This document shows positions 1 to 57,962 of a stretch of 64,000 nucleotides of DNA, in pieces. The DNA is taken from assembly GCA_963575745.1 (NCBI GenBank), contig CAUYUJ010000331.1, positions 1 to 64,000 on the forward strand, given 5' to 3'. Source of the stretch: Prorocentrum cordatum (Eukaryota). Position numbers and translations under genes: made by a program. The notes under the pieces were generated by a model that had not been told where the DNA came from, did no database searches, and was given only the letters and a program-made list of their open reading frames with translations. Numbering within the stretch: position 1 is the stretch's first letter; every line of letters starts with the position of its first letter.

Positions 1-8405
<8,405 letters not shown>

Positions 8406-24275: not shown

Positions 24276-24310
24276 AACTGGAAGCTGGCGGGAAACCGTC
24301 GACCTCGGTT

Positions 24311-27036: not shown

Positions 27037-29170
27037 CTCTTACAAGATATTGCAGGGTGCCCAGTTTTAGCTCTGGTGGCGGACCACTCTCAGACTTCTC
27101 GATACTATGGGCGACGGTCTGATGATTCCCTGTTGAGCGGTGTCCTCTCCAGCTCCCTAGCTTGCCTATACATTGAATGCAGAAATCCAACGCCGTCGAG
27201 TACAATTGTTTCTGGTTCCAGCTCTGGTAGCAGACCGAGTTCGGGCATCTAGATACTTGATACTAGCGCTCCTGATGATGTTATTCCGATTGCTGTGCCA
27301 AAATCAGCGGAGTACGGATAGTTGTTCGGTTCCATCTCTGGTAGCAAACCGAGTTCGGGCATCTAGACACTTGAGACTAGCGCCCCTGATGGTTTCCTTT
27401 CGGTTGCTGCGCCGAACAGCTGTGCAGCTCATCTGCAGCTCGAGTTACATTGAGGAACTCATCGTCATCTCCAGAAAAAAGCAGAGCACGAATAGTTTTG
27501 TCGGACCCAGCTCGGGTAGCAAACCGATTTCGGGCATCTAGATACTTGAGACTAACGCTTCTGATGATCCCCTTCCGGTTGCTGTGCCGAACAGCTCTGT
27601 AGCTCATCTGCAGCTCGAGTTGAGTTCAGAAAACCGACAGCACCTGCCAAGTTGGCACTAAACAGCCGATCCAGCCTGAGTGCTTTTTGACAGTAATATG
27701 TACCCGATCGACCTGAGATTAAGATGGCGAGCGGAAATAAGATCGAAAATGTGTGGGAAATCTCAATCTCACTCTAAGGACCTTTCAAATTTCGAGATTC
27801 GCCGCTTTGCTCTTAGGGAAACTCCACGAGTCATTTCGAGAAAAATATTTTTTAATAGGCCAAAAAACCAAACATCCGTCGATATGTTTCGGGCCAACTG
27901 GGCGCCCGCGGCAAACCGTCAACCTTGGCTACCGCCGGGAACTCGTAGAGCTTCCTTGCGACATACACGAATGGGATGCGCGCGCGGCAATCTCGCTTTC
28001 CGCGCACGCGAGGGCGCGGTTTCACGAGGAGGGCGCGGAGGAGAAGAGGAGCGAGGCGAAGAAAGAGAAGGAGGAGGATAACGAGGAGGGGTAGGAGGAG
28101 GGGGAGGAGGAGGTGAAAGAAAGGAAGAGGGGAAGGAGGAAGAGGAGAGGCAGCCTATGAATTTAACACAGGAAACATACATATATCTCTTACCAAATGT
28201 TGCACAGTGCTCAATTGTAGCTCTGACTAATCTCAGACGTCTCGATACTGTAGGCGACGGTCTGATGATTCGAAAATTTGTCCAGTCGCAGCTGCGCTTG
28301 CAGGCCAAATTCAGACGTCTCGATTCAGCAGAATACGATTGGCTGTTGGGTTCCACCTCTGATAGCAGACCGAGTTCGGGCAGGTTGTCTCCCGATTGCT
28401 GTGCAAAACAGCTCTGTAGCTCGTCTGCACCTCGAGCTACATCTAGAAAGGCGTCATCATCTCAGAAAAAAACAGCAGGGTACAAATAGTTCTTTGGTTC
28501 CAACTCTGGTAGCAGACCGAGTTCGGGCATCTAGATACTTGAGACTTGCGCTCCTAATGTTTTCGCATTGCTGTGCCAAGCAGCTATGTAGCTCATCTGC
28601 AGCTCGAGGCACACCAAGATAGTCACCATCATCCCTGAAAAAATAAAGAGCACAAATAGTTTTTCGGACCCAGTTCGGGTAGCAGACCGTGTTCGGGCAT
28701 CTAGATACTTGAGACTAACGCTGCTGCTGGTTTTCTTTCGATCGCTGTGCCAACCAGCTCTAAAGCTCATCTGCAGCTCGAGTTAAAAAACACCGCAGAG
28801 TACGAACAGCGTTTCGGACCCAGCTCTGGTAGCAGACCGAATTCGGGCATCTAGATACTTGAAACTAGCACTTATGATCATTACCTTTCGATTGCTGTGC
28901 CAAACAGCTCTGTAGCTCATCTGCAGCTCGAATTAAGTTAAGAAAACCGAAGGCGTCTGCCGCTATGACACTGAACAGCCGATCCCGCCCACATGCTTTT
29001 TGACAGTAATATGTACCGATCGACCTGAGATTGAGATTCCGAGCGGGAATGAGATCGAATATGCTGCGAAAAAAAAAGAACTCTATCGACATATCGAAAT
29101 TCAAAAAAAAAAAAATGATTCTAAATAAATCGAAAAAATGACAAAACTTCCGTCGATATTTTTCGGGCCA
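25772..29170 (-). repeat. Two tandem composite H units (hairpin end, purine-rich spacer, ~175-bp satellite, conserved block); putative non-autonomous Helitron-like elements
   Basis: Same architecture at 25772-27897 and 27898-29170. An empty hairpin target sits at ~27898-27960. Confidence 0.75.
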
Positions 29171-33105: not shown

Positions 33106-33215
33106 AACTGGGAGCCGGCGGTAAACCGTCAACCTTGGTTTGTTTTGCGGTTTGCGGTCCGCCACTAGAATCCGAATCCGAATCGGCGGAGCAGTGCAAC
33201 TGAGCCCCCACCATC

Positions 33216-36200
33216 TTAGGTAGGTCGCAGCAGAGCGCACGCCACCTTAGCAGCAGCTCTCGTCAGGGCAGCGCAGGCAGCTAGTTCACAGCAGGTTACC
33301 GTGCTACCTGGAGGCAAGCTCATCGCCTCCTCGGCCACATCGTGCCAATGGAAGCTGTGCGAGCTGGTGCAGGAGGAAGAGGAGGAGGAGGAGGAGGAGG
33401 AGATGGGAAAATCAACCTGCACGCTGGAACCCCTACCTACAACGCCAATCTGAAGCCACCACCCACCTCCACATCCTTCATTACTGACACCCCCATCGAA
33501 TGCACCACGGAGAGCAGTCTTACGAGTACTGAGGAACTGATCATATGCAAACCAGCGAGTAATAGTTTGGCCACCTCTGGCCTCCCACGACAATCTATCC
33601 GCACGTTCATTACCCTCACGAAAGAAATGCTTATACAGATTCTGTCCCGATGCAGGTGAGGTCAGTCCCCATCCAGACAGCATCGATACCGTATTTTGTA
33701 GTGTTCCCACCAGTCGTACATACTGCTTGTTGCGAATCTGCCACTCACCACACATCCAGTTAACAACCGTCTTACTATCTCCCAAGATCTCCATCCCAAG
33801 ACGCTCAATATTCTCACACCTCCACTCCGTTTCATTCTCATAATTAGCGGCAATACGTTTGCTAATCCTCTCATTCATCTCTCTCTCCTCCTCCTCCTCC
33901 GCCTTCACGTGCCTCACACCAGGTGGCCTGGGTAAAACAAACAAGTCGAACAAGTGTTGCATGCCAATCACAGTCAGCAAATGTTTGCAATATTTCTCTC
34001 GGGGCCCAGCGGAGCTGTCGAACGAGAGGTACCACTCACAACCAAAGAGATCGCACAAACACCAGTCCCACACAGTATGTCCACGGGCAGGTGCGCCCAT
34101 GCTCATGCGTGTGAGATGCTTCCTATCTTTTGCAGGCAACGCTAGAATACATGTGTCCCGATGTTCCGTCCACTTCCCCCTTCCATGTAGCATGGCCAGC
34201 CTAGATATCATCCATTCACGTGACATGTCCGACTCCTCAGGTATGGCAGGCTGATCATCCGTTGTCCGCCGACGACCGCCACTCGACATCTGGGAGATCT
34301 GAGATACATGAGATGCATGAGAGGCCGCCGCCACCGCCATCGCCCGAGTTTTCCTCTGACGCCGATTTGGTACCGTCTCTCCCTCCTCCTCCACTGTGTG
34401 TGTTGTGTATCTCCTCATACGAATACTTGCAGCAACTGAGACATCCTTGGCCCAATCCCAACAACGAAATATCCATATCTGCACCGCACTTCGGAATCCA
34501 AGCTCAACAAAACTCTGCCGTCCAACTTTGTATCGCCTACGTTGAAACTCAGACCAGCCTTCAGTTCTCCGCTTGCGTAGACCTGACATTAACGCCAGGC
34601 ATCTACCTTCAAAAGAGTGAACAGCAGCAATGGTGGAATAGTCGGGCGTTCTGCCCTCACAGTTGAATAATAATGCAGCAATCACTTTAGCTTGATAACG
34701 AGTAAATCTCTCAGCCAAATCAATCCCAGAGCAGCGATAATAAGCGATTTCCCCAAAGAACATCTTCTGGGCTTTCTGGAGCATGGCCTCTGAGTCCGAG
34801 TGGTCCTTCCAGGTCTCCTCCAGAGTGGCTCCCAGGATCTCAAACGACTGAACACGCGGCAGGACCACTTCTCGGGCCCCAAGAGCAGCGTCACTAGACG
34901 GCACCAGCACACGGATATCCTGCTCGGGGGACGGCGGGATGCCAGGCGGCGCACCAAAGTAAATATACATCAAGGATTTCGGCTTCCAGGTCATTCCTGC
35001 ATTCATCAGCGGGATACTCATGTCACGCACCATCAACTCGAGGTCAGTGCGGGTCTTCGCATACAACAGAAGATTATCTGCCCAGAAACTGTGGGTCATA
35101 CGCTCACCGTTGAACATGCGCTCATCATTTTCCAATTTGATACCGTACTGCGTATCCTGCCTCCACCTGTCGATCACATCTCTCCAGAGTACAATAGAAA
35201 CTGCTAGAAAAATCATCGGCCCCTCCACTCCTCCCGTTCGAATAGATTTGTCCCAATAGACCGCTGAAGATGCCTCGATGCCCTCGAAGCTGGCCACGCA
35301 CTGATTATCCATCATGGGTTCAATCAACGCCACAATGAGATCAGCTGGTATGTCAAGAGCACGAAGACAGCGCATGGCGAGGCACGGAGTGACATTATCG
35401 AATGCTTGTAAAATATCAAGGTTGGCAAGCCACAAACTGTCTCCTTTGCCCCAGACAGCGGAGTGCTGGCTGAGCCTTTTGGCAACGCTGGTGATTTCCG
35501 ATGTTTTACGTCCCGATCTGAATCCGTACAGGCATACATAGTGTCGGTGCTCCTCAATCCTCTTCTCAATCATCATCACAATACATGTCATGTACCATTT
35601 CATAAGACACGACTGTAGACATAGTACACGTGTATCTGTCAAATGTTGTATGTCAATTTCTTTAGGCATGAGTGTGGCAGCTAGTTGACGCCAACTGTCG
35701 GGGCAACATAACCTGCGGGAATACACACCTTGGAAGCTCACCAGCACACGTCGAACAGATGCCCACGAGAGCTGTTTCAACATCGTGACAGTCACGTTGT
35801 CGGGACCTGGGGCCTTTCCCGTGGACAGCTTCGCCCTCGCCCGCAGCAGGAGCGACATCGAGAACACCTCTGAGGATCCGCTTCCCGAACATAGACCACG
35901 CAGCGACTGTAGCTCACGAAGGGTCACCTCCCTGGCCTCGGGGTCCTCCACCTTAGACTTCATGTGCCCCAATATCTCGTCCCCCCACTCCTCGCGGTTC
36001 TGGGACTCCATCCCGTTGGCAAGGATCAACGTCTCCGTCTTGGCCCTCCTCCTCCTCCTCGTGTTCATTTCCGTCCTCCACCTCTGTACTCTTGCCTCCA
36101 GCCTCCTTCTTTCTCTCCTCACTATCTTTGAGCACCGTTTGGCCTCCTCTCTATCCCCGCGACGAAGTGCTTCGCGTTTACTTTCCTGGGCGGCCCAGTG

Positions 36201-37391
36201 GATCTCGGATTTCTTTGGCACATTATTCCTGGGATTGGTATCTTTCTGGGGGGTCTCCTCGGCGGCCTTTATGAGGTCAGTTCCCAGCATATCCAACATC
36301 TCCCGGCGATCCTCTGGGTCAGCATGTTCCTGGCACAATGCACGGTAACGACTGCCCCGATCGTCCATGTTCTTCGCGAACTCAAGCTGCGACACCGGTT
36401 GCAAGTAGATGAATTTGCGAGCAGGCTGGGTCCGTCTCTTCGCAGACGGCGCACAAGACAAGCGAACAACTATGCAAGCGTGGTCAGACAGCGCACGCTC
36501 GTATCTGCTGCATGGGTGCTCCGTCCAGGCGTGGCCCACTTCCGCAGGCAGCATCCAGCCTACAGTGATATCCTGCCTGTGTAAACGACGGCTGACACCA
36601 ACATAGTCGAGTACCTTCTCCACCCCCGTACTTGATTTGAAAGTAACCCTCCTCTGCCCAAATGTGTTCTCCATCCTGATGCCCCAGAGCCCGCAGAAGT
36701 CCAGTAGGGCCCTCCTCATAGATTGCAGCCTAGACGCCCGTCGAGTTTCGAAGCCCGAGACAACCCTATGAGGTCTTGTTTTACGTGCACCACGTTTTGT
36801 TTGAGTCATATACGGGTTGCCGTCATCCGATCCTTCCTCCATCCCAGTATCAATCTCCGTAGAATCCCCAGCAATCCCAGACGCCTCCAGAAGCCCTGAT
36901 CCAGTAACTCTAAAGCCGTTGACCTCCGAATCTGGCTCGAGTTCGACGTTAGCATCTGTCAAGAAGACCAGGTCCTGCGGCTGCTTCGGGAACTTAGACC
37001 TATGTGTGCGAAGCACTTGGGATATATCAAACAATATCTGCTCATACACATCATGTTCATGCTGTTCTTCCGTAAGGGTACGAATACTCTCATGTGGCAT
37101 ATATGCAACAATAACAGTAACACTAGAATAACTACAAATCACAAAACCTGTGCCACGATATGTGACTCTGAGCAAGTCTCTCCAAGACTTAGACATGATC
37201 ACCGCAGCCTTCCGACAAGTACTCCGAAAAATTGTGTAACCTCGCATGCTGAGATCACGAACTGAAAGGAACTGGCACTCGCACAACCCCGCGAGTCCCA
37301 CATCTAAGCGACGTAGTGAATTAATTATGTCATGGCCGTTCTCTGCACCTGCCCGACGCACATTCCATGACGCAATGGTGTCGTGGCACCT
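33216..37391 (-). CDS. ORF2: AP endonuclease + reverse transcriptase + circularly permuted RNase H (open frame, no upstream ATG)
   Basis: APE motifs TIASWNV, GLCE, AYMP, TDAN, NTF, LDYV, SDH. RT motifs KAPGPD, YGFR, DILQAFD, IRTGG, FWADN, ILG. C-terminal GDS...REGNERAD...FDGG...CELAA. Confidence 0.95.
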   Translation of the reverse strand, partial: RCHDTIASWNVRRAGAENGHDIINSLRRLDVGLAGLCECQFLSVRDLSMRGYTIFRSTCRKAAVIMSKSWRDLLRVTYRGTGFVICSYSSVTVIVAYMPHESIRTLTEEQHEHDVYEQILFDISQVLRTHRSKFPKQPQDLVFLTDANVELEPDSEVNGFRVTGSGLLEASGIAGDSTEIDTGMEEGSDDGNPYMTQTKRGARKTRPHRVVSGFETRRASRLQSMRRALLDFCGLWGIRMENTFGQRRVTFKSSTGVEKVLDYVGVSRRLHRQDITVGWMLPAEVGHAWTEHPCSRYERALSDHACIVVRLSCAPSAKRRTQPARKFIYLQPVSQLEFAKNMDDRGSRYRALCQEHADPEDRREMLDMLGTDLIKAAEETPQKDTNPRNNVPKKSEIHWAAQESKREALRRGDREEAKRCSKIVRRERRRLEARVQRWRTEMNTRRRRRAKTETLILANGMESQNREEWGDEILGHMKSKVEDPEAREVTLRELQSLRGLCSGSGSSEVFSMSLLLRARAKLSTGKAPGPDNVTVTMLKQLSWASVRRVLVSFQGVYSRRLCCPDSWRQLAATLMPKEIDIQHLTDTRVLCLQSCLMKWYMTCIVMMIEKRIEEHRHYVCLYGFRSGRKTSEITSVAKRLSQHSAVWGKGDSLWLANLDILQAFDNVTPCLAMRCLRALDIPADLIVALIEPMMDNQCVASFEGIEASSAVYWDKSIRTGGVEGPMIFLAVSIVLWRDVIDRWRQDTQYGIKLENDERMFNGERMTHSFWADNLLLYAKTRTDLELMVRDMSIPLMNAGMTWKPKSLMYIYFGAPPGIPPSPEQDIRVLVPSSDAALGAREVVLPRVQSFEILGATLEETWKDHSDSEAMLQKAQKMFFGEIAYYRCSGIDLAERFTRYQAKVIAALLFNCEGRTPDYSTIAAVHSFEGRCLALMSGLRKRRTEGWSEFQRRRYKVGRQSFVELGFRSAVQIWIFRCWDWAKDVSVAASIRMRRYTTHTVEEEGETVPNRRQRKTRAMAVAAASHASHVSQISQMSSGGRRRTTDDQPAIPEESDMSREWMISRLAMLHGRGKWTEHRDTCILALPAKDRKHLTRMSMGAPARGHTVWDWCLCDLFGCEWYLSFDSSAGPREKYCKHLLTVIGMQHLFDLFVLPRPPGVRHVKAEEEEEREMNERISKRIAANYENETEWRCENIERLGMEILGDSKTVVNWMCGEWQIRNKQYVRLVGTLQNTVSMLSGWGLTSPASGQNLYKHFFREGNERADRLSWEARGGQTITRWFAYDQFLSTRKTALRGAFDGGVSNEGCGGGWWLQIGVVGRGSSVQVDFPISSSSSSSSSSCTSSHSFHWHDVAEEAMSLPPGSTVTCCELAACAALTRAAAKVACALLRPT

Positions 37392-38438
37392 CTAGTTCGT
37401 ACTGGAAATCCTCGCTCGCAACTCATCAATGTTGATCCCTGGGTCAAGCTGATTCATTGCACGAGTAATCTCCCAGCCATTCTGCAGAGAGAACTTGGCC
37501 ACCATCTTCCCTGGAGGTGGCAAGTGGTCACTGGAGCCCCACATGAACGTAATCGGTGGTCCCGTCTCAGCCCTGAGATTTGAATGATGCTTCTTGAAAC
37601 TCTTGAACTTTGCCTGAAAGATCCCAGCGGCATCCAGATGGGGCTTCTTCCAGGGGGGGGCCTCCACGTGGACCTTGAAGACCCTGGGAGCGTGCTGGAG
37701 TTTGTTGTCGGCAATCGCGGCGACGAGTCGACGACGGAGATCCCGCAGCTGGTCACTGGTAACCCCATTATGGAAATAAAGCCGAGCACGCGAATAACCC
37801 CATGCCTCTCGACCTGTGTTGAACCTCTTGGATTGGTTCAGGTCCAGAAACTCCTTGACACCACTGAGCCATTCTCCAGCCAGGACCTCATTCAGTAGTA
37901 AATTCAACGCCTGCTGTGATAACATCTCCTCCTGACGCTTCTCTGCATCCCGCCAGTCCGTCACCCATCCCTTGAGCTCGACGAACGACGGAGTGAAATT
38001 CTGCATGGACTGCCGAGCTTCCGCCGAGGACGCCGTCGTAGAGGTGCCTGCTCAGGGGGCCCCACCTGCAGGAGCCTGCTGGAGCTGGATAATCTGGAGC
38101 CTCTGATCCTCCACCTTCTTAGTAATAGCATCTATGTCCGTCATCGCCTGCTGTACATTTTTCTCGACCGAATCAACACGAGCATTGAGTTGGGTGCCGA
38201 GATCCGCGATGCTCCGATGAGTTGACTGGAAGCCCTCAGTCATCTTACCTCCCAGAGATGCAACAAGCATCGTGATCTTGTCCATACCCTTAGTCATGGC
38301 CTCCTCGAGGCCTTCAACCGTCTGAACTTTGACACGTTTTCCCTCTGGGACCTCCTCCTCCTTGGCTCCTGGAACGGGCATATCAGTGGCATCCATGGCG
38401 AAAATCTCGGGGGCTGCAGCAGCTGATGAGGCAGCCAT
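37392..38438 (-). pseudogene. ORF1 of A2 (coiled coil + probable RRM), frameshifted near 38052
   Basis: Two ORF pieces match the continuous ORF1 of copy A4. Confidence 0.85.
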
Positions 38439-38939
38439 CTTGCCGTCTGAGATGTTACAAAGGATATTCCACTTCTCACAGAACGATCGATCTTCTCGAG
38501 TACGTTTGAGATGCGCACTTAACTGATGAAAGTTATATGGGGCAACAGGATTGTGAGGTAAAGTGGGGGATAGATCAGGTGGTCCAGATGGTATGTCAAC
38601 TAGAGAATCTTTATCGTCGTGACAAGATCTACCAACCTGTCTGGCAAGATACTCCCACTCCCAGTGTCCGAAGTTGGATCCCCAGCGGTCCAGATCGATC
38701 GATTGACTCTGGCTCGTCCCGTCCAGCTCGACGCAGCAAAATGCCGCAACAATGCACACAAACAAATACAAACAAATGGCAGGCGGCCTGCTTACCTCGG
38801 ACTCGCCGAAGTCGCCGAAGATGCCGAGTGGCCCGATCGCCACGCGCCCCCGCGCGGCGGGCCAGGCCAGGGGCAGGCAGCCTGACTGCACAATGCAGCT
38901 CGAGCCGCACGAGGAGGCCCCACGAGCCCCAGCAGCGAC

Positions 38940-40767
38940 CAACCTTGGTTACCGCCGGGAACTCGTAGGGCTTCCTCGCGCAATGCGGGCGCGGCAATCT
39001 CGCATTGCGCGCGCGAGGGCGCGGTCTCATGGAGGAGGCTGTGGAGGAGAAGAAGGAGCGAGCCAAAAGCATTTCTGGGAAAAATAAAAGACATACCAGG
39101 CCGAGTTCAGGCGTCTGGGCACTTTGAGCTAGCGCGCCTGTTGATTCCTTCCGATTGCTCTGTCGACCAGCGTAAAGAAAACCATCACCATCTCTTTAAA
39201 AATATAGATTACGAATAGTTGTCCAGCGCTGAAAGCAGACCGAGTTCAGGCGTCTAGATACTTTAAACTAGCGCGCCTGATTATTTCCTTCCGGTTGCCG
39301 TGCCAAACAGCTCTGTAGCTCATCTGCAGCTCGAGTTAAGCCAAGAAAACCAATACCATCTCCCAAAAAAGTTGCAGAGTATGGATAGCTGTCCAGCCCT
39401 AGCGCTGATAGCAGACCGAGTTCAGGCGTCTAGATGCGTCAGACTATCGCGCCTGATGATTCCCTTTCGGTGGCTGTGCCAAACAGCTCTGTATCTGCAG
39501 CTCGAGTTAACTCAAGAAAAGCATCGCCATCTCAAAAAAATGCAGAGTATAAATAGTTTTTCGGCCAGGGCGGATCGCAGACCGAGCTCAGACGTCTAGA
39601 TACTTTGAACTAGCGCGCATGATAAATTCCTGCCGATTGCTGTGTCGAACAGCTCTGTAGCCCATCTGCAGCTCGATTCAAGTCAAGAAAATCATCATCA
39701 TCTCGAGAGGAAAAAAAGAAAAAAAAAAAAAAAAAAAAAAAAATGTGCGGCCCCAGCGCTGATGGCAGACCGATTTCAGGCGTCTAGATACGTCAGACTA
39801 TCGCGCCTGATACTTTGCTTCCGATTGCTGCGCCAAAGAGCTCTGTAGCTGATCTGGAGCTTGAATAAGAAATCGAGAAAACTGGCGCCGGCGGTGAGCC
39901 GTCAACCTGGTCCCCGCCGGGAACCTCGTAGAGCTCCTTGCACGCGTAAGAGTGCTCAGAGTCGAAGCAGACAGCTTCTCGGAGCATTTCTAGAAAAACG
40001 TCAAATTTGTATTTTTCAGTGTCAACCTGATGTCGGTTCCTCCAAATGTTTCGATAGGAAAACTCTCTCTAGAGAGCTGATTCTCTTTCAGAATGAATTT
40101 TAAACACTAATGCTGAACGTGAAAATCTGATACCTCAAAATGAACTGTTAAATATCTTTCAAATCTTAGCAGAACCGAGCCCAAATTACCACATTGTCCT
40201 TTCTGGCCGGGTCGACCAACTGGCGCCAGCGGTGAACCGTCTACCTGGTCACCGCCAGAAACCTCGTAGAGCTCCCTGCACGCGTGAGAGTGCTGAGAAT
40301 CGAAGCAGGGAACTAAAATGAAAATTGTCTTGAAATCTATATTTTTGCATTTTTTGATGTTAATATGAGGTCGGCTCCGGGAAGTGAACCGATAGTAAAA
40401 CTCCCTCGGGAGAGCTGAGCTGCTTTCAGAACAGAGCTTATATACGAATGATCAGCGCAAAAGTCTGGCTTGGCAAAACCGAGCCCAGGTCACCACATTG
40501 TCCGTTCTGGTCGGGGCGACCAACTAGCTCCACCCCGCGCCGGAATTCCTCTAGCTCATCGATAACGAAGAGCTCTACGAGGTACTAGCTCCGCCCCGCG
40601 CCGGAACTGGGAGCCGGCGTTAAACCGTCAACCTTGGTCACCGCCGGGAACTCGTAGAGCTTCCTCGTGCAATGCGGGCGCGGCAACCTCGCATTGCGCG
40701 CGCGAGCACGCGGTCTCATAGAGGAGGACGTGGAGGAGAAGAAGGAGTGAGGAGAAAGCATCTCTGG

Positions 40768-40843
<76 letters not shown>

Positions 40844-42225: not shown

Positions 42226-42260
42226 GGCACTGGCGCCGGCGGTGAACCGTCAACCTGGTC

Positions 42261-44649
42261 CGCGGAGTCTGCGTCGGCCGATTCGAGCTCCCTGGAGAGC
42301 AGGCCAGGACACAGAGAACCTAAACAGCGAAGCTGTACAAGGAACAGCGAAGCTGATAGATTAAAGCAGCAAGATTATGCAGCGAAGCTGTATAAGAAAT
42401 GTGCAACCTACATATATAAGTGCACAAATCAGCAACTCCCGACAATAAACTCTGAGATGCAGCAAGCTCCACCCAACCACAAGATGTGCCTAACACACAA
42501 CTGCCGCCATCAAAAGAGCCTCTCACCGCGTGTACACCATATTGTAAAACTAAGAGAATGTGAAAGTAGAAACAATGCGAGCTCATGCGGTAACCAATGA
42601 TGCGGTTGCCTTCTCGGCACCACTGACGTAAATGCAACAAGGAAAAAGGAATGAATTGAAAATCAAATGTAAGCGAAGAAAGCGTGCCTAAACCTCTTAT
42701 GAGACCTGCCAGCGGAGAGCGGAAGGAAAGCCAGCGGGAGAGCGGGAGAAGCCCAAAGAGCGAAAGCGAACCCAGGGGCAAAACAGCGGGGAAGAGAGGG
42801 GGAGAAACACACACAGAAGCATGTGCAATCACTCAAACACTCAATCAATTGGGTGTCCGACCTTGGCCGCCAACTCGCAGTTGTTCATTACGTTGCGACG
42901 CCTCCATTCATCCTGAAATTCCAACACGTCGCACATAGATTTCGTAACGCTTTTGGGAACAAGTCTGTGGTGCATAAAGTCTCTGATATCCGTCGACAGA
43001 TGGGTCAAAATGGCTATCGGGCCAAGTCTCGCGCGATCCCGAAGAAGCGCGTCAAGCAACGCAGCCTTTTCCTCGGCACCCGAGGCCATAAGGCGATGCA
43101 GCGTGGCAGCCGTGAAAGAGTGAACGAGCTTTACCCAGCCAGACTTGCGGAAACAGTATTTCCTGATCCTTAAATTGCACGCCAACTAATACGAATAATC
43201 TGCATGGTCACGTTTCTCCTCGTCCTCCATCACATTCCTTCCATCAGCGTTTATAGAAATTTTAGGTGGTGAAGAAAAACCGAGGCATCCAAAGAAACGT
43301 TCCCCTCCTCCTCCTCGTCCTTCACGTCCCGCCCCTCAGCCTTCAAAGTACGGTGGGCATCACCCAACTCCAACTCTCGATCCGTAAGGTTCGAAGATGC
43401 AGACAACCACCTAGAGCCAGATCGGGCAACCGGCTCAGCAGCACCCGCATTCACACCCACATCTGTCGAGGCGACTCCCACTTCCGAATTCATTTGCGAC
43501 GCAGCCGTCTCGGAGTGGCAACTGGAGCTCTCAAACGCGCCATGTGAAGAGCTCCCAAGGTTTGACGAACTCGCGACGATGTTGGACTGACAACTTGAAC
43601 TCCCACCAATATTGGCCTGACAACTTGAACTCTCAACAGTCGCGGCAAGGCAACTTGGACTGCCAGCGGCATCATGTGAAGAACTCCCCAAGTCTGGCAC
43701 ATATGCACGAGCGTCCCAGAGCGCCGAAAAGTGCGAGCCAACTCATCCCAACCTTCTTCCGCGAACTGGGTTTGCACAACAGCGTCTAAAATTGCGAAGG
43801 CGAGATTGCTTGCACACCAGCGTCCTGACATTGCGCAGTAGAAACTGTTTGCACACCAGCGTCCTGCAACTGCGAATTAGATTCAACATGTACAGCGGCG
43901 ACACCCGTACGAACAGCAAGCTCCCTTGAACCGCCCTGGAACCACCTTGAACCCGATGGGGGCGTCGGTTCTGCAGCACCCGCATTCACTCCCAACTTAG
44001 TTGAAGAAAGTCCCACTTCCGAATTTATGTGCGCACCTGCGGCCGGAAATTGCAAGGGTGAAACTGCATATATACCGGCGTCCTGCATCTGCATATGAGT
44101 GTCCTCAACCCATTCCTCTTCCTCAGAATCGTCCGAGCAGAAATTCCGATAATATCTGGGCGCGCAAATACCCGCGTGAACAAGGCACGACGAATCTGGC
44201 CCCCGAGCCGTGGACCACAAACGATACCTAATACGTTTCGCCCGCAGGCGGCGCAACTTCGATAGAGAAACTTCGACAGCATGCCCATACAGCTGGTCTC
44301 GCTCACGCAGGCGAGACTCACCTCCGCACGAAGGGCGAACACGGCAATATAGATCACTAACACACACTTCGAGCGTAGACAAACGAGCCGCGAGAAACTC
44401 GGAAGTAAACAACGCCGTTTCTGTCCAATTTGAAGCTACAAAATCCGCGCCTGACAATTCAGATGAAACAAACTCCATATATGAAACGTGGATTCCCTCA
44501 ACAAGAAGAAGGCAAATCACAAGCAATAACAAGATGGACAGCTGAGTACGAAACGTGCGCATGTACAAAAACCTGCCCGCACGACGCAGCTCGAGGAGGC
44601 CCCCGACGGGCCAGGTCGCCGCTGAGATCCCCGAGGAGGGACAGCAGCG
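42261..44649 (-). mobile_element. Non-autonomous insertion E1 (~2.4 kb) in the variant hairpin target
   Basis: Absent from the empty sites at 39882 and 40220. Flanked by ACCTGGT (42253-42259, 44650-44656). 5' end GGTCGCTGCTG and GGGGCCTCCTCG are shared with LINE A. Confidence 0.75.
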
Positions 44650-44656
44650 ACCTGGT

Positions 44657-45858
44657 ATTTTGCGTCTTTTGCGAAGGCCGGTTCGAGCTCCCATGGGAGC
44701 AGGCCTAAACACAAAGAACCTAAACAGCGAAGCTGTACAAGAAGACAGCGAAGCTTCAAAGATTAAAGCAGAGGTGCATCAAACGGCGAAGCTGTACAGA
44801 TATGCACAAGACTGCCAATACACTAGAATACAAAACAACAAAGATGATAAAAGAAGCTGTACAAGACAGCAAGAAGCAGTGCGAGACCATGCAGTAACCA
44901 CATATAGCGATTACCGTCTCAGCACCACTGAAAATAAAAGCAGTGAGAGACCATACAGTAACCACTGGTGTATACAGCGATTACCGTCTCAACACCACTG
45001 AGACAAACACAAAACTAACAACTAAAATGACGAGTACACTTCACAGTAATGCGAGACCATGCAGTAACCACATATAGCGATTACCGTCTCAGCACCACTG
45101 AAAGACCATGCACGTGAAACACAACGAATTTGCGGTCGACTGTGCACAGAGTCAGGCAAGACACCCACCACTCTTTGAGCGGTAGTGGGCAAATGCAAAA
45201 CTCGTATTCAGAACAAGGTGAAGATCACGCGGAGCTCTTATACCAACATGCGCGCATGTCCGACACACACAGCATGGCAAGAGTCAACGCAAACACAAAG
45301 TCCGAAATATGTCGTAACAACCCGCGGTAAGACAAGAGTCGTATGCTCACGTCAGATATGTGATAACTGAATGTCTGATAACGCACTCAAGAAGTAACTC
45401 TCGGATAACTGAATGTCTGATAACGCACTCAGTATCTTGAATCACCTGCATAACTGAATGTCTGATAACGCACTCAAGTATCTTGAATTCTGATCGATGC
45501 GATTCAAAGAAAGAATGAAAACAGGCACGCCAATACAATGCAGAGAACCTCAATCTCAATATATTCCAATGTCACAGAACTGTCAAAGTACCTCAATGTC
45601 AAAGAATACACACGTGTGCAAGAACAATAATGGAGAAAGCGCAAGCAGGCAGTACAAACAAGTACAAACCGACGACAGCGGCCTATGCGTTGAAGTCAGT
45701 CCCACTTATGATGCCAAACAGAGCTGGCCTCCAGCACCTATCGTCTGTAGGTCCAAGGAGAGAAGGTCGTCGCAGCCGACGAAGTACCCGAATTTATTGC
45801 ACGGCCCGCCCGCGCGCACACGGCCGCCCAGGGGGCAGCCTGAGGAGACAACCTTGAG
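44657..45858 (-). mobile_element. Non-autonomous insertion E2 (~1.2 kb), tandem with E1
   Basis: Its 3' ~100 bp is homologous to that of E1 (TTCGAGCTCCC...GAACCTAAACAGCGAAGCTGTACAAG). Flanked by CCTGGT, and the target resumes at 45859. Internal tandem repeats. Confidence 0.75.
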
Positions 45859-46248
45859 CCTGGTCACCGCCGGGAACCTCGTAGAGCTCCTTGCACGCGT
45901 AAGAGTGCTCAGAATCGAAGCAGAGAGCTTCTCGGAGCATTTCTAGAAAAACGTTAAATTTGCATTTTTCGGTGTCAACCTGATGTCGGTTGCTCCAAAT
46001 GTTTCGATAGTAAAACTCTCTCTGGGGAGCTGATTCTCTCCCAGAATGAAGTTTAAACACTAACGCTGGACGCAAAAAATCTGATATCTTAAAATCAATG
46101 GTCAAACTGGGAGCCGGCGGTAAACCGTCAACCTTGGTTTTTTGCGGTTTACGGTCAGAGCTGGTAGCGCTGGGGTCAGCGCCACTCGCGCCCTGCCACA
46201 ACTGGCGCATTGCAGTTTCGCAATCCCAGGAGCTTCGAGAGAGGGGCA

Positions 46249-49200
46249 CTACAGGCACAGCCTAATGATGTCCTGAACTCCTCTTAGAAGCTGAGTCGCT
46301 GCACAGAGTTCCGCGGACGCGATGGAAGTGTGGAGGGGGAGGGAGAAGGAGTGTAACGCAACATCTTCATACCACTGCTGGGCACAAGATGGGGAAAAGA
46401 AGAGCCTGGGAGAACACTACTCACGTTCACGTCACATACCCATCCTGCACCAACTCCTTCAGTCGAGACACCCCCGTCAAAGGCACCTCGTATCCCCGAT
46501 ATTGGAATAGTCTTCTGTTGACATTCTCTGATAAACCTCAAATCGAAAACTCGCTCCTGTCGTCCTCTCCTCGCATTCCAAGTCATCCGATCCGCCCTCG
46601 TATTGCCTTCTCTGTACACCCATTTCCAGATATCATGGCCTGCGCTCGGTGGGATAATCCCCGATGTCGTTGTGAGAGAATAAAGCAAGCTAGATACCTC
46701 CGCAATTTCATTCATATAAGTAAGATTGCTAGTATTATATAGCCCCGTCAGCCAATTCACAACCACCTGAGAGTCCCCACTTAATTCCATAGAAACGTAA
46801 CCTGGATAGAATTCCCAAGTAGACTGCCTTTCAAATATGTTTGCCAATCTCCTGGAGGTCTCAATGTTCTTTGGGTGCAGGGGGTCCGTGGACATCTCCT
46901 CGTCCTCCTCCTCCCTCACATGTATGTTGTTGTTCTTGAGCACGAAATACGGTATCATATGCTCGAACTTTCAAGCTCTCGGAGCGCCTGGCGACAGAAA
47001 TCTGACCATCCTTTCTCCGACCACTGAAGATGTCCTCTCCACCAGTACTCACCTCCCACGGAGTCAAAGATGCCAGCCCAGGAGTGGAAAGCTAGACGAT
47101 GAGCACCGTTCGAACGACCGCCGCTGCGACTGATCTCACGAGCCTGCTGGGTTCCAAGATACTCAATAAACAGATCCACTGCCTCCGCCCAAGCAATATT
47201 TCCCACGAGCATCAGAGTACGAGCCTGCAGGTGTGTGTTGAGGATTGCCGACTTCTCCGTCTTCAAGGCCCGCGGAGCAGGCTTGTGACCAAGATTCTCT
47301 TTCAGCCTCTGTGTATTGCCAGAGAGTTGGGTCCTCGTTTTCTTCAGGCCAGCACGTTGAGTTGGGCCCTCCCCCTCCTCTTGTCGACTCCTTTTGGCTC
47401 CATGTCTTCCCTCCTCCTTCGCCTCCTTAATCATCCTCGTGTGTCGTTGTCGCCGATTCTCAGACATTGGGACCTCCTCCTCCATCTCCTCCTGCATATT
47501 GTTGGTGTGTGGGGGCGTAGACACTGTAGAAGAGCAGGGTAACAGGGGTGGAGGAGGTGGAAGTACATGACATAAGGAGTCCGAGATATCCTTTGCCCAC
47601 TCCCACTGTTTACGCAGTACTCGTTGAACGAGACTCTCTCGCCCTGTTCGATGAAGCAACGCTCTCCCTGCTCGTATCCTTTTTGCCAAGAAGAGTGTCC
47701 AGTTTTCTTCCCGTCGTTTGGACCGCCACAGCATTTTGGCCAATAACCCTCCCTCCCTTGCGTGGATGAACTTGAGGCTGTTGGAGTCTATCGTGGCCCC
47801 AACGATGCCATACAGAAAACACGCTTGCACACGACTACAGCATCGAGCAATCTTTTTTCTGAGCGGCGGGGACCGATCATAGTAGTAGCTTTAATCACAC
47901 CAGAATGTTTTTTCCGCAAGCTCCCACCTGTGGTGTATGTCATCATGCTCCCGAAAACGTTTGTCTGTCCTGACCCCCAAGACGTCCATGACATGTACGT
48001 GCGGTAATTCAACTGCTGGATCAACATTCTGAATAATCATGCTACCCTCAGGCGTCTGGCGATATAGTGTTCATATACATGAGTGACTCCTTTTTCCAAT
48101 CAAAACCGTGTCGCCTCAGTGCCGTCGTCATCTCTCTGATCCTTATCTCCAGCTGATCATCCGATGCTGCAAACAAGAATACATTATCAGCACATAACAT
48201 GTTAGTGATATTCCAGTCGTTTGGCGCCCCAACAGTTGAAAGGGATACCCCAGGCCACGCTCAAACCATCCAGTACACACCGGCTCGAAAATCATAATGC
48301 TGACGAGAACCCACAGCATTGGGGCTTCCATCGATCCAATTCTAATACAACTGTCCCAAGGAATACTGGACGTCTCTATCTCCTGAAAACGAGGTGTTGC
48401 CATATTATTGGTATATCCTTCGAGCACTGCATACGCTAAGTTCGGGTCGACGTTGGAGAACCCCATAGCCTCCGCCGCACAAGGTATGGTGAAATTGTCG
48501 AAGGCTCTGGCGACATCAAGTGACGCCCAAGACAGCGAGCACGATTTGCCCCACATGGCCGTGTGCCTCACAATATTCTTGAGGCCACTCGTCACCTCGT
48601 GAGTTCTCCTCCCAGGCATGAATCCATATAATTGACAGTGCTTGTGGCCATCAATCGATCTAACATGCCTCTCCAAAAGTTGTGCTAGACAACTGCTGTA
48701 CCACTTGCTGAATACACTTAGAAGTACGATGGCTCGTGTTTCTGTGAAACAAAGGGCCCCATTCTTTTTGGGAAGTAGCGTGACACACAGCATTCTCCAT
48801 TCTTGAGAAGTGACAGATCTCCTGACATAGAGCTTCTGGAAGGCCTGCAATATCATACATAGAGATGTCCAAGGTAAAGCTTTGAGCAGAGACGCCCCAA
48901 TACCGTCCGCTCCCACTGCCCTCCCCATCTTGAATCTCGCCCTGGCCCGAAGTAAGAGCCCCATGGTAATCGGGTTCCCCTCGAGAGGTGTCGCCTCGGC
49001 CTCCTGGAGTAACTTCTGAACACACTCATCATTGGCAACCTTCTGGGAGCTGTCCGCATATCTGTTTAACCCATGCTGTTGGAGTGCCCTTTCCCAAGCT
49101 AGCCTATCCTCCGTCTTGACCCCATCCACCATGACGTGCGTGATGTGCTTACGTGCCTTCTTTCCGTCCCTAAATTTGTACTGGACCTGGCGGCTACGAT

Positions 49201-50437
49201 AGTGCCGTCGTACTTTATTCCAGATACGTCGACTCTGCCGAAACTCCTCCTTCGTGATCTCCCCCCTCTTCCATTGCTTGTGTTTTTGATAATGTTGATT
49301 CCTCACCTCCACCTCCTCCTTGGTCATCGATGGGGGCCTCAAGGGGTCATGTTGGAGCCCCTCAGGAAACGATGATGCTGTTCTCCTGATAGCTGTTGCC
49401 TGGACCTCAACATCGATCTCGTCCTCAGTGGAAATCACGTCCTCCCCCTCTCCTACTGCAAACGGATGAGATGTGGGAGCAAGGGCATGATCGAGACGCC
49501 TCGCCACAACTTTCTCCATCCCTGGCGGCACTCTCCACTTGGCAAAGGAAGGAATAGCTGGCACCGCCTTTCGAGATCTGATTTTGCTCCATTGGGTCAC
49601 GTTCATTTCCAACAACTAATGATCACTCAAGAGCGTGACGGGCGTGTCCGATGGCATGTCACATGGGAGAATCCAGTGCTTGGCGACAGTGAGATGCGGC
49701 CAACTGCGTGGGATGGCTATATGGTCGTACACATGCTCATATCCATACTGGGAACGCCACGTACATGCACTCACCTCCCCCCGAGATCCCCTTCGATCCC
49801 CAAACGTGTTGGTGAGCTGGAGTCCCAGAGCGCCCAGAGTGGTACATAGGGCGTCCGCCATACAGGTTCTGATAGCATGCTTCTGTTTTTCATGCCCCCC
49901 CCGTCGTGGAGCCTCGGAGCCCGAGGTAGCTTCCCCAGACACCTGGAAACCGTCCCTGACCGAGTTACGAAAGACTTCAACATTCGCATCCATGGAGATA
50001 ATCACATGCTTGATCCCGAACTCATTCTTGAGGTCCTGGACAGATAACGCCATACTAAGTAGCACTTGTTGATACAATGCTACTGTTTCCCGCTGTTTTC
50101 CCAGTTTCCAGAAGAATCGAGAGTATCTTTGTGTGGTAGGTAGAGGGATGCAAAGAGGAAGCCCTGGAAGACACAGATAACGAAACGCTCCTCCAGGCTG
50201 ATGTTTGCGAAAGAGTGGTAATAGCTTTTTTCCCACGGCAACCCCTGCCTTTCCCGTACTGCAAGGGAAGATATGATACGGCGTACCAGTATCAACCACC
50301 TCTTCCTGCATGAATTGACATTCTTGGAGTCCAATGACTTCCAATCCCATGTCAGTGACACGTTTGAAAACTGTGGCAGCCTGACGCGTCCCAAGCCGCC
50401 TTACATTCCAGCCTGCCACACGGCAGCCTGGGCACCC
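46249..50437 (-). pseudogene. Family B ORF2 (APE + RT + permuted RNase H), several stops and frameshifts
   Basis: VAGWNV, GLQE, MDAN, YDHI; RAVGADG, YGF, DVARAFD, LCADN; GDS, REGNTRAD, FDGG; and in a shifted frame SAELCAA. Confidence 0.9.
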
Positions 50438-51745
50438 CTACTCCGACCTGTTACTCTTAGCCTGGAGGTCCCGCGCGTCAATCGAGCTGTCGACTTTCGC
50501 AACCCCCGAGGCTGTGAGTTTCCATCCATCTCCTCGCGTCCAGACCCCAAAGCATACTTCATGTGCTCTCTGCATCTGCGGACGTGCGTACGCCCAACTC
50601 AAAGTACTTCCACCGTGTTCAACTCTGCACTGGGCCGTCGATACCTGTTTCATACTGTAAAGACCGCCGTAAGTTGCTTACCTGCTCGAACTTGGGACTC
50701 TTTCCATGGGGGATTCTCAACTTCCAGAGCCAAACGTTGATCGATCCTGACCCCCAAGGAGTCCTCACTTCGTAATCTCACATCTTTATTTTGAATAGCC
50801 TCCCACCACTCTCTCCGTACCTCCCACACCGTATTTTTGGATACTCTTGGCTTGAAAAAGACCTGAATCTGATAGACTCCATCCCGTCGGTGGTTGGCTC
50901 CAGAGGTCGCGATGCGATCGAAGATCTTAACCTCCTCACTCTCACGATGTCCAGAAATATCATTGATGAGTACTTTCACCGTCTGCTCTGTATTATCAGG
51001 AGGCAAGTTACGATCAGTACGTCCAACCACCTGTCTCGGATCACCTGTGGCCCATCCCTTAAGAACAATCCATCCTGGTGTATGCTCTGGGCGAACAATA
51101 TTCCAATCCGTGTTGTCAATACCCCTTCGACTCCCAGCATCAGATGGCGGTCCAGAAGTGCCCGCCCTCGTACTGGCCCCCATGGAGAGGACGTGCTGGG
51201 TCCAAATTCGGATTATGAAGCTTTGTGATGGCCTGCTCCTGCTCTAACTGTTTCCACTTCACGTCCTCCACATCCCTGGCGACGTTATTCAACGAGTCCC
51301 TGACAGGTGCCACCTCCTCCCGAACTAAAGCACGTCTTTCTTCTTTGAAACTCTCGAGTTTGGATTCCATCGTTCTGGTTTGATTGGAAAACATCGTAGC
51401 CAGAAAATCTTTGAGATCCGCATCCTGAGGACCCTGTGCTGGAGGTGGTGGCGGTGGGGCTGCCTTCCTGGAGGGCAGAGTCGAGCGTCCAATACCTGGG
51501 TCGTATGCTGCTGATGACTTGGCCTGCACTGGGGGTCCTGGTTTAACCGCAGTCGATGAGGCATCACTGGGGGCCGTGGGTACCTGTTCTGTCGGGCCTC
51601 CAGGGGCTGGGGCTGGACGGAAGCCTCCAGGGCCCCCTTTCCAAGCCTCTCCCTCACGAGAACCTGTCGCACCTCCTCCTCCAGCTCCTCTAGCTTCCTC
51701 TCCACGCAATCCTACATCATCCACCTACATACCTGACCCTGCTGC
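50438..51745 (-). pseudogene. Family B ORF1, disrupted
   Basis: Coiled-coil segment. WIVLKGW and VENPPWK match FVELKGW and VEAPPWK of family A. Confidence 0.8.
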
Positions 51746-57951: not shown

Positions 57952-57962
57952 CAACCTCGGTT

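What the first reader, a model, noticed from the sequence alone, without database searches (positions are those of the whole stretch)
38895..38985. Element 5' end is an inverted copy of the target flank
The element 5' sense sequence (B: GGTTGCCGCTGGGGCTCGTGGGGCCTCCTCGTGC; A nearly the same) matches the opposite-strand flank GGTTACCGCCGGGAACTCGTAGGGCTTCCTCGCGC. Five of six substitutions are A>G or C>T, which keeps G-U pairing. This ~35-50 nt is shared by A and B, whose UTRs otherwise differ. Possible models: the RNA 5' end pairs with target DNA as a guide or anchor; a junction hairpin processes read-through transcripts; or the cut target end (AACC-AA-GGTT) snaps back, copies the flank and then switches to the cDNA.
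Basis: partly seen in the sequence, partly recalled or inferred. Interest (0 to 1): 0.85.

Follow-up and report, generated by a model that had tools for sequence, protein, structure and literature searches.

The report
Retrotransposon leader mirrors its target flank
Two unrelated families of a site-specific jumping gene (LINE) begin with about 31 bases that are a reverse-complement copy of the DNA just upstream of their landing site, most likely a fold-back scar that became an inherited part of the element, and its function is still open.

Summary
At 38907-38981 the first 33 nt of a full-length non-LTR retrotransposon (sense strand = minus strand) and the 31 nt of target flank form an imperfect palindrome. 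It is centred on the 11-bp target-site duplication CAACCTTGGTT. The sense RNA folds at -76.1 kcal/mol (z -6.9).

The elements are endonuclease + reverse transcriptase + RNase H LINEs. They insert at one core in a multicopy target, read here as left arm, core, right arm. Empty sites, duplications and a 5'-truncated copy confirm this.

The leader is inherited, not made at this insertion:
- It matches its own flank at only 23-24 of about 31 positions.
- It is 44 of 45 identical to the leader of family B at another locus.
- That 49-nt 5' module is the only nucleotide similarity between families A and B.
- Three other 5' junctions on a right arm in the window lack any inverted copy.

The best reading is an ancestral snap-back junction, a known by-product of target-primed reverse transcription, that was captured into the transcribed 5' end and exchanged between families.

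The G-U bias (5 of 6) is confirmed as a count but is not significant (p about 0.11). Only three leaders could be examined. A guide or anchor role is neither shown nor excluded.

The parts
38951..38981 (+). Right arm (R) of the target, immediately upstream of the element in its sense orientation. It is the template of the inverted copy.
   Evidence: The same arm is present at empty sites 27931-27960 and 40640-40670.
38940..38950 (.). 5' copy of the 11-bp target-site duplication CAACCTTGGTT (quasi-palindromic core). It forms the loop of the junction hairpin.
   Evidence: the identical 11-mer lies at 33130-33140; public contigs join 33129 to 38940, with 11 letters fitting either side.
38907..38939 (-). 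Leader of family A copy 1. These are the first 33 nt of the element and are a reverse-complement copy of the R arm, with 23-24 matches over about 31 nt.
38895..38908 (-). 14-nt near-palindrome (GCGGCTCGAGCTGC on the sense strand) directly after the leader. It is a perfect palindrome, GCGGCTCGAGCCGC, in family B and in copy 2. It belongs to the shared 49-52-nt 5' module.
33141..38939 (-). Family A copy 1, a full-length LINE of 5.8 kb. ORF2 is open; ORF1 is split into 38438-38052 and 38006-37392.
   Evidence: Public contigs skip 5810-5812 nt here, which shows empty alleles or other empty copies.
33216..37361 (-). ORF2, 1381 aa read from GTG (1343 aa from the first ATG at 37247). It holds an ExoIII/APE-like endonuclease, a reverse transcriptase and an RNase H-like C-terminal domain.
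   Evidence: RVT_1 at 1.7e-11. profile against PDB: L1 ORF2p 8c8j 1.4e-19, R2 8gh6 9.1e-19, RNase H 6.6e-4, exonuclease III 2.7e-3 over the whole domain; the SDH motif is invariant (D293, H294).
33106..33140 (+). Left arm (L, 33106-33129) plus the 3' copy of the duplication (33130-33140). This is the downstream flank of the element.
46140..52293 (-). Family B element. Its leader lies at 52264-52293. It is joined head-to-tail to the 3' end of copy 2, with no R arm beside it.
   Evidence: Its RT fragment is 26% identical to A at protein level.
52301..57952 (-). Family A copy 2, 94% identical to copy 1. It carries a different, more R-like leader at 57924-57952: 26 matches, 2 substitutions and 2 one-base gaps against R. 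It is joined head-to-tail to the 3' end of fragment E.
40605..40670 (+). Empty target (L + core + R). It is followed by a purine-rich stretch and a pure poly(A) run of about 70 nt.
27896..27960 (+). Second empty target (L + core + R).
24311..25771 (-). 5'-truncated family A copy, flanked by a 12-bp duplication of a local core variant (TCGACCTCGGTT at 24299-24310 and 25772-25783). It has no leader and no inverted copy.
42256..45855 (-). Family C element in a type II target. Its 5' end starts with a core-like CAAGGTTG and has no R-like leader.
   Evidence: C UTR against R, 453 of 1000 shuffles as good.
58454..58470 (+). 17 nt of R arm (17 of 17 identical to the common R form). On one side it abuts the 5'-truncated fragment E (minus strand). 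On the other it abuts the 5'-truncated family A copy 3 (plus strand, 58471 to the window end). This head-to-head arrangement is unresolved.

Best explanation
The leader is a transcribed, inherited part of the element. It is the first ~31 nt of a 49-52-nt 5' terminal module carried by two very distant families (A and B) of a site-specific LINE with an APE-like endonuclease, a reverse transcriptase and an RNase H-like domain.

Shown:
- The elements insert at the core CAACC(TT)GGT of a multicopy target (L arm, core, R arm).
- They make 11-12-bp duplications.
- Their sense strand always points away from the R arm.
- The leader is a reverse-complement copy of exactly the conserved ~31 nt of R.

Inferred origin. 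In an ancestral insertion the 5' junction was made by fold-back (snap-back) synthesis. After the staggered cut, the upstream DNA end finishes in the self-complementary AACC-AA-GGTT(G). It can fold on itself and be extended along its own flank before joining the cDNA. Equally, the cDNA may have switched onto the nicked R strand. In either case a palindrome flank-core-copy results.

Inferred spread. Transcription of that copy started at or before the core, so the copy became heritable. It then moved between families by recombination or template switching at the 5' end.

Inferred consequence. Where a leader-bearing copy lies next to an R arm, a ~40-bp hairpin or palindrome arises as a by-product. 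Any present function, such as docking the RNA 5' end on the upstream target strand, is possible but not shown.
For: The leader-to-R similarity is real and bounded.
- Local alignment: 0 of 2000 shuffles as good.
- There is no significant extension beyond +31.

The target model holds.
- Two empty sites lie in the window.
- Public contigs join L directly to R, skipping 5810-5812 nt.
- The duplication is 11 bp at copy 1 and 12 bp, of a local core variant, at the truncated copy.

The leader is heritable.
- The copy 1 leader matches its own flank at 23-24 of ~31 positions, yet matches the B leader at 44 of 45.
- The 5' 49 nt at 95.9% is the only blastn match between A and B, although their RT regions share only 26% of residues.
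- In 2 of 3 cases the leader directly follows another element's 3' end, with no R arm to copy from. A third, different tandem junction appears in a public contig (table 5c).

It is not a routine integration by-product. 3 of 3 other elements whose 5' junction abuts an R arm lack an inverted copy.

The 5' ends are dynamic. Copy 1 and copy 2 are 94.35% identical overall. Their leader blocks agree in only 18 of 32 aligned columns (Fisher p 8e-10).

The mechanism has precedent.
- Snap-back 5' junctions holding reverse-complemented nearby target DNA are reported for R2-mediated insertion (passages read in PMC11371274 and PMC11331408).
- Inverted duplications of flank made by self-annealed 3' overhangs are reported at L1 insertions (passages read in 10.1101/2024.12.14.628481).

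A detail that fits. The base after GGTT is G in all 3 leaders and A or C in the R arms. This is as expected if the copy starts behind the last base of the duplication.
Against: - Only three leader-bearing copies could be studied, all from one window. No genome is held and three collection scans found nothing.
- No transcript data exist, so the start of the RNA is inferred and not seen.
- Near-identity of the module in two families with 26% protein identity could reflect function, not neutral carry-over.
- The substitutions between leader and R are all transitions and mostly wobble-compatible in the sense RNA: 5 of 6 for B, 2 of 2 for copy 2. The sense hairpin is 15 kcal/mol stronger than the antisense one. 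A pure 'scar' does not predict this.
- The one R arm with G at position +19 (1 of 9 R arms seen) is the arm next to a leader with G at that position. This hints at interaction or conversion between the arms.
- The ancestral fold-back event cannot be observed.
Confidence: 0.45

Rival explanations
1. The leader is functional as RNA. Either the 5' end of the element RNA pairs with the upstream target strand (the complement of R) and docks the RNA or cDNA end at the cut. Or, in read-through transcripts, the flank-core-leader hairpin is a processing or recognition signal that defines the 5' end.
For: - The sense RNA hairpin folds at -76.1 kcal/mol, z -6.89. The antisense one folds at -61.0.
- Substitutions are transitions, and most keep G-U pairing in the sense strand: 5 of 6 for B against the local R, 2 of 2 for copy 2.
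- The module is 44 of 45 identical in families that share nothing else at nucleotide level.
- In family B the leader has lost all five A's of R: four to G, one deleted. My post-hoc estimate for this gives p of about 0.008.
Against: - The direction bias is not significant: 5 or more of 6 gives p of about 0.11, and 4 of 5 if the first G belongs to the duplication.
- R arms are polymorphic in other copies (loose ends at 33140), so the source variant is unknown.
- Family C uses the same kind of site without a leader.
- 2 of 3 leader-bearing copies have no partner arm and no significant hairpin.
- The leader block is the most variable part between two copies of family A.
Confidence: 0.25
2. Common descent, with no copying event. 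The R arm would be the 5' head of an oppositely oriented, related (non-autonomous) retroposon. The palindrome would then arise because two elements with homologous 5' ends sit head-to-head at the same core.
For: - The ~31-nt R block is attached to at least three different downstream sequences (types Ia, Ib and II), as the leader is attached to A and B.
- Type Ib units end in poly(A), about 70 pure A at 40770-40840. They meet the 176-bp satellite at different points, as retroposed copies would.
- L arms start at the same base, AACTGG, with several different left contexts.
- Head-to-head elements do occur in the window, at 57952 and 58471.
Against: - Homology between R units and the 5' module stops at about +31. 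The palindrome hairpin and the rest of the module are not shared.
- R units lack the families' 3' end and show no core duplication at their far end.
- Some left contexts of L are in fact homologous to each other (24276, 27896, about 42100).
Confidence: 0.15
3. The inverted copy is made anew at every full-length insertion by snap-back on the local flank.
For: - Snap-back junctions are known (PMC11371274 and PMC11331408, passages).
- The cut end is self-complementary.
- Leaders differ between copies of one family.
- Copy 3 is preceded by 17 nt that are 17 of 17 identical to the common R form, in leader orientation.
Against: - The copy 1 leader differs from its own flank at 6-7 positions of ~31, plus indels, in an element about 95% like its sisters.
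- The same leader sits at another locus in another family.
- The B and copy 2 leaders lie in one array behind one R arm, yet differ from each other and from that arm.
- 3 of 3 other junctions on an R arm lack a copy.
Confidence: 0.07
4. Chance resemblance in GC-rich sequence.
For: Two other palindromes of about 30 nt or more occur in the 64 kb. The GC-rich UTR gives many weak alignments.
Against: 0 of 2000 shuffles reach the alignment score. The palindrome is centred exactly on the duplication. Three leaders at three loci all resemble R.
Confidence: 0.02

Closest known systems
Snap-back 5' junctions in target-primed reverse transcription. Sources: R2-protein-mediated insertion (PMC11371274, PMC11331408; passages read) and L1 insertions with inverted duplication of flanking DNA (10.1101/2024.12.14.628481; passages read).
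   Same: Reverse-complemented target DNA lies between the upstream flank and the element's 5' end. In those papers it is explained by a 3' end that folds back, or switches strand, and is extended before joining.
   Different: In those papers the junctions are sporadic, one-off and not inherited. Here the copy has diverged from its own flank, is carried from locus to locus, and is shared by two families at 44 of 45 nt. It has therefore become part of the element.
Site-specific APE-type LINEs that target repeated sequences or other transposons, such as the Tx1 and R1 lineages. These names are recalled; no call tested them.
   Same: They have an APE-like endonuclease and a reverse transcriptase, one precise target in a multicopy sequence, short duplications and 5' truncations. 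Several families share one target.
   Different: I could not place these elements in a named clade; the best protein relatives are 26-31% identical and unnamed. The 3' end is A-rich and ends in the core sequence, not in a poly(A) tail. I know of no report that such elements carry an inverted target copy at the 5' end, and my four answered paper searches found none.
R2 elements whose RNA keeps some upstream 28S sequence after ribozyme cleavage. The 'anneal' junctions are described in PMC11331408 (passages read); the rest is recalled.
   Same: Target-derived sequence at the 5' end of the element RNA can pair with the target and give precise 5' junctions.
   Different: In R2 the target-derived sequence is a direct copy released by an HDV-like ribozyme from a co-transcript. 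Here it is an inverted copy, and no ribozyme family matches.
Giardia Genie 2 / GilD, non-LTR elements with inverted repeats at their ends. Source: earlier finding e1-618892 and recall; not tested here.
   Same: A non-LTR retrotransposon associated with an inverted repeat at its end.
   Different: There the two arms are the two ends of the element itself. Here one arm is element and the other is the target flank, and the element's 3' end carries no matching arm.

Membership tests
Non-LTR (LINE) retrotransposon with APE-type endonuclease | Reverse transcriptase domain of the LINE type | tested here: met
   RVT_1 at 1.7e-11; profile hits to L1 ORF2p (8c8j, 1.4e-19) and R2 (8gh6, 9.1e-19).
Non-LTR (LINE) retrotransposon with APE-type endonuclease | N-terminal exonuclease III / APE-like endonuclease domain | tested here: met
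   exodeoxyribonuclease III chains at E 2.7e-3 to 1e-2, aligned over profile positions 7-249 (the whole domain); invariant D293 and H294 (SDH motif) and conserved N-terminal motifs in 11 sequences. Pfam alone gave only a weak hit in one relative (E 0.05). Support is therefore moderate.
Non-LTR (LINE) retrotransposon with APE-type endonuclease | Target-site duplication and 5'-truncated copies | tested here: met
   an 11-bp and a 12-bp duplication; a 1.5-kb 5'-truncated copy.
Non-LTR (LINE) retrotransposon with APE-type endonuclease | Poly(A) or simple-repeat 3' tail | tested here: not met
   the 3' ends read ...ACCGCAAAA(n)CCAAGGTT. They are A-rich but end in the core sequence and have no poly(A) tail.
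Site-specific LINE | Independent insertions at the same nucleotide position of a repeated target, with empty sites present | tested here: met
   five filled 3' junctions (24296, 31315, 33126, 42247, 46125) and four empty sites (27916, 39899, 40237, 40625) share the core; public contigs join L to R directly.
De novo snap-back 5' junction | Reverse-complemented flank between the upstream target and the element's 5' end | tested here: met
De novo snap-back 5' junction | The copy is identical (at the time of insertion) to the local flank and is unique to that locus | tested here: not met
   23-24 matches of ~31 to the local flank; 44 of 45 identical to the leader of another family at another locus.
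R2-like co-transcript with 5' ribozyme | Self-cleaving ribozyme at the 5' junction and a direct copy of upstream target in the RNA | tested here: not met
   no Rfam family at gathering score in the window; only three sub-threshold miRNA-precursor-like hits (24.2, 23.5 and 22.3 bits against cut-offs of 65, 196 and 97), which reflect the hairpin shape. The copy is inverted, not direct.
RNA-guided target recognition (as in group II introns) | Covariation of guide and target across copies, and retargeting by compensatory change | tested here: inconclusive
   Only 3 leaders and 9 R arms were available. One possible covarying position was seen: G at +19 only in the R arm beside copy 1.

The most novel reading that the evidence does not exclude
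The leader is a built-in RNA guide or anchor. The 5' end of the LINE RNA would pair, with G-U or G-T wobble tolerated, with the upstream target strand right next to the second-strand cut. It would hold the RNA 5' end, and hence the cDNA 3' end, at the break, so that full-length copies are joined precisely. The module would be kept nearly identical in unrelated families because they share the target. That would be an RNA-directed step in second-strand or 5'-junction formation of a LINE, and in principle it could be retargeted.
Probability: 0.15. Interest if true: 0.85.

Novelty: new variant of a known kind. Interest (0 to 1): 0.55.

Why it matters
How LINEs finish integration is still poorly understood, in particular second-strand priming and 5' joining. 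Here a structure otherwise known only as a sporadic snap-back scar is fixed in the element. It is carried between loci and shared at 96-98% identity by families that have nothing else in common at nucleotide level.

If it is only a scar, it shows that junction by-products can be captured into LINE 5' ends and exchanged between families. If it is functional, it would be an RNA-to-target pairing step in a LINE. That can be tested directly by compensatory mutation and would interest people who build retrotransposon-based insertion tools.

Tried and rejected
Looking for more copies:
- No whole genome is held for the window.
- An exact pattern of the R arm in metagenome contigs gave 0 matches.
- The ORF2 protein against metagenome contigs gave 60 pattern matches, none confirmed by tblastn.
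- A leader pattern and an empty-site pattern in viral contigs each gave 0 matches.
- Earlier findings of this scan, searched by place, by sequence and by words, held nothing on this genome.

Sequencing runs:
- No RNA holder was listed among the 24 runs, so expression and RNA 5' ends could not be examined.
- In the four contig sets laid, the indel table gives depth 0 (X1), 3.82 (X2) and 8.19 (X5) at 38922-38938. At 38846-38860 it gives about 510-560, 380-420 and 70-100. This is a part without cover in short contigs, and I draw no conclusion from it.
- 242 further 'other letter' rows and 243 loose ends were not shown.

Extended homology between the 5' UTR and the R unit beyond +31: not significant (54 of 2000; 155, 928, 360 and 367 of 1000).

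The native target as a strong palindrome: rejected. The empty sites fold no better than shuffles (z -0.93, +0.36, -1.05), although a short inverted repeat, CCGGCGGT...ACCGCCGG, does flank the core.

The leader as a mimic of the L arm that regenerates the target: rejected by eye. The spacing differs by 7-8 nt and few bases match. R plus core stay intact at every 5' junction, so tandem re-insertion needs no leader.

Complementarity of the leader to the element's own body or 3' end: none beyond 9-14-nt matches.

The target as a tRNA or a known RNA gene: no tRNA and no Rfam family.

Tool-level failures:
The second, with seed 8, did not list the junction palindrome itself, because indels break the gapless extension.
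- One paper search failed on term format.
- One protein comparison failed on stop codons.
Full report
**Setting.** The window looks eukaryotic and is rich in repeats: microsatellites, a 176-bp satellite and several retroelements. No genome is held for it. The runs that share its words are mostly marine or other water samples.

Three copies of one LINE family, which I call A, lie in the window:
- Copy 1 at 33141-38939, minus strand.
- Copy 2 at about 52301-57952, minus strand, 94.35% identical to copy 1.
- Copy 3 from 58471 to the window end, plus strand, 95-97% identical.

Other elements are:
- A 5'-truncated A copy at 24311-25771.
- A very different family B at 46140-52293.
- Family C at 42256-45855.
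- Fragments D (about 31330-33100) and E (57963 to about 58440).

**What the elements are.** ORF2 of copy 1 (1381 aa) has an RVT_1 domain. A profile of it and ten relatives hits the following PDB entries:

| PDB match | E-value |
|---|---|
| L1 ORF2p (8c8j) | 1.4e-19 |
| R2 proteins | 9.1e-19 and weaker |
| RNase H, with the C-terminal part | 6.6e-4 |
| Exonuclease III, over the whole N-terminal domain | 2.7e-3 |

These are therefore LINEs with an APE-like endonuclease, a reverse transcriptase and an RNase H-like domain. Their relatives in the large protein libraries are distant and unnamed, at best 26-31% identity over long stretches. Many short fragments of 83-96% identity also occur.

**The target.** All 3' ends join the same sequence. 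Read on the plus strand, the target is:
- an L arm, AACTGGGAGCCGGCGGTAAACCGT;
- a core, CAACCTTGGTT;
- an R arm, ACCGCCGGGAACTCGTAGAGCTTCCTCGTGC.

Evidence for this model:
- Empty sites lie at 27896 and 40605. A second type lacking the central TT lies at 39879 and 40218.
- Copy 1 is flanked by an 11-bp duplication of the core (33130-33140 and 38940-38950).
- The truncated copy is flanked by a 12-bp duplication of a local core variant. This shows that L, core and R belong to the target and not to the element.
- Contigs of four public runs join 33129 directly to 38940 and skip 5810-5812 nt. Their loose ends at 33140 and 38940 read R and L arms. The R and L bins are far deeper than the element body.

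The target is therefore a multicopy sequence, and it exists empty elsewhere.

**The observation.** On the sense strand the order is: complement of R, core, then the element's first 33 nt.
- Those 33 nt align to R with 23-24 matches over about 31 nt. 0 of 2000 shuffles align as well.
- The junction folds into a long hairpin:

| Strand folded | Energy (kcal/mol) | z |
|---|---|---|
| Sense RNA | -76.1 | -6.89 |
| Antisense RNA | -61.0 | -4.99 |
| DNA | -35.4 | -4.25 |

- The empty target does not fold better than shuffles. The palindrome is therefore created by the element's leader.
- The resemblance stops at about +31.
- The first A>G may be the last base of the duplication.
- With six transitions, five or more in the favourable direction has a probability of about 0.11.
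- Loose ends show other R variants, for example with GGGGGAC in place of GGGAAC. The variant from which the leader was copied is therefore unknown, and the bias is not established.

**Inherited or made on the spot?** Four results point to inheritance.
1. The copy 1 leader is a poor copy of its own flank but is 44 of 45 identical to the leader of family B at another locus.
2. Between A and B, whose RT regions share 26% of residues, the 5' 49 nt at 95.9% is the only blastn match in about 6 kb. Their UTRs further in are only distantly alignable.
3. In 2 of 3 cases the leader follows the 3' end of another element in a head-to-tail array, with no R arm beside it. A public contig shows a third, different tandem junction (table 5c).
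4. Three other elements whose 5' junction abuts an R arm (truncated A, C and E) have no inverted copy.

Snap-back is therefore not a routine outcome at this site, and the leader travels with the element.

The 5' end is nevertheless unusually dynamic. Copy 2, which is 94% like copy 1, has a different and more R-like leader: 26 matches, 2 substitutions and 2 one-base gaps. The leader blocks of the two copies agree in only 18 of 32 columns (Fisher p 8e-10).

**Mechanism.**
- *Precedent.* Snap-back 5' junctions that contain reverse-complemented nearby target DNA are described for R2-protein-mediated insertion (PMC11371274 and PMC11331408; I read the passages found with 'snap-back'). Inverted duplications of flanking DNA from self-annealed 3' overhangs are described at L1 insertions (10.1101/2024.12.14.628481; passages found with 'hairpin', 'foldback' and 'inverted duplication').
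- *Why here.* In this system the staggered cut leaves an upstream 3' overhang that ends in AACC-AA-GGTT(G). That end is self-complementary. In all three leaders the base after GGTT is G, as expected if the copy starts behind the last base of the duplication.
- *My reading.* I conclude that the leader most likely began as such a fold-back junction, was captured because transcription started at or before the core, and was later exchanged between families.
- *Possible site of exchange.* A perfect 14-nt palindrome, GCGGCTCGAGCCGC, lies right behind the leader. It is part of a 28-nt stretch that is identical in B and copy 2, and it is a plausible site for such exchange. This is inference only.

**What remains open.** The near-identity of the module in unrelated families, the transition-only and mostly wobble-compatible changes, and the stronger sense-strand hairpin are what a pairing function would predict. 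The single R arm with G at +19 is the one next to copy 1, whose leader has G at that position. I estimate a chance of about 0.065 for this. It is one site only.

I could not enlarge the sample and no RNA run was listed. The guide or anchor model therefore keeps a modest probability.

A further rival is that R is the 5' head of an oppositely oriented retroposon. The target units do look like retroposed, poly(A)-ended units inserted at different points of the satellite. However, the homology stops at +31.

**Verdict.** The finding is a real and unusual structural feature of a new, unnamed group of site-specific LINEs. It is best read as a heritable derivative of a known junction by-product. It is of moderate interest now and would be of high interest if a pairing function were shown.

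Noticed in passing
52294-52300 and 57953-57962: Head-to-tail junctions: the 3' end of one element, then a core-like CAAGGTT or CCGAGGTT, then the leader of the next element, with no L or R arm between. The core copies at the two ends of copy 2 differ from each other. Either repeated insertion at the 5' junction of a resident or end-to-end template jumping could have built the array.
   Followed up: partly
57963-58500: Head-to-head arrangement. The 5'-truncated fragment E (minus strand) and the 5'-truncated copy 3 (plus strand, with a 19-nt duplication GCCCCTGGCCTGGCCCGCC) are separated by a core variant and 17 nt of R arm. This cannot be resolved without the sequence beyond the window end.
   Followed up: partly
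52252-52265, 57912-57925, 38895-38908: A perfect 14-nt palindrome, GCGGCTCGAGCCGC, lies right after the leader in family B and in copy 2; copy 1 has one mismatch. It could be a hairpin or an RNA dimerisation site where 5' ends are exchanged between families.
   Followed up: no
40605-40845 and 38951-39092: The target unit (L + core + R + purine-rich stretch) ends in a pure poly(A) run of about 70 nt at 40770-40840. In two cases it meets the 176-bp satellite at different points. It looks like a short retroposed, SINE-like unit that the LINEs then target. L arms begin at the same base, AACTGG, with several different left contexts.
   Followed up: partly
38969: The R arm beside copy 1 has G at +19 (GTAGGGCTT), where the 8 other R arms in the window have A. 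The adjacent leader also has G at the mirrored position. This may reflect conversion between the two arms of the palindrome.
   Followed up: partly
10090-10235: A separate long palindrome with arms of about 65-70 nt, centred on GCTCGAGAGCTCCCGAGC. Another imperfect one lies at 8613-8687. Both appear unrelated to the LINE target.
   Followed up: no
1-8000: Kilobases of (ATC)n, (CCT)n and related triplet microsatellites with very strong GC skew, down to -0.74. These give long spurious open frames.
   Followed up: no
37392-38438 and 58588-63631: No family A copy is fully intact. Copy 1 has an open ORF2 but a split ORF1. Copy 3 has a long ORF1 frame but ORF2 split into 60004-62439 and 62411-63631. 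Copy 2 has a deletion of about 140 nt in the 5' UTR and a split ORF2.
   Followed up: partly
31841-33114: Fragment D consists largely of internal tandem repeats (units of 99-228 nt at spacings of 265-741 nt). It is followed directly by a second L arm and copy 1, giving the order L, D, L, copy 1, R, which simple nested insertion does not explain.
   Followed up: no
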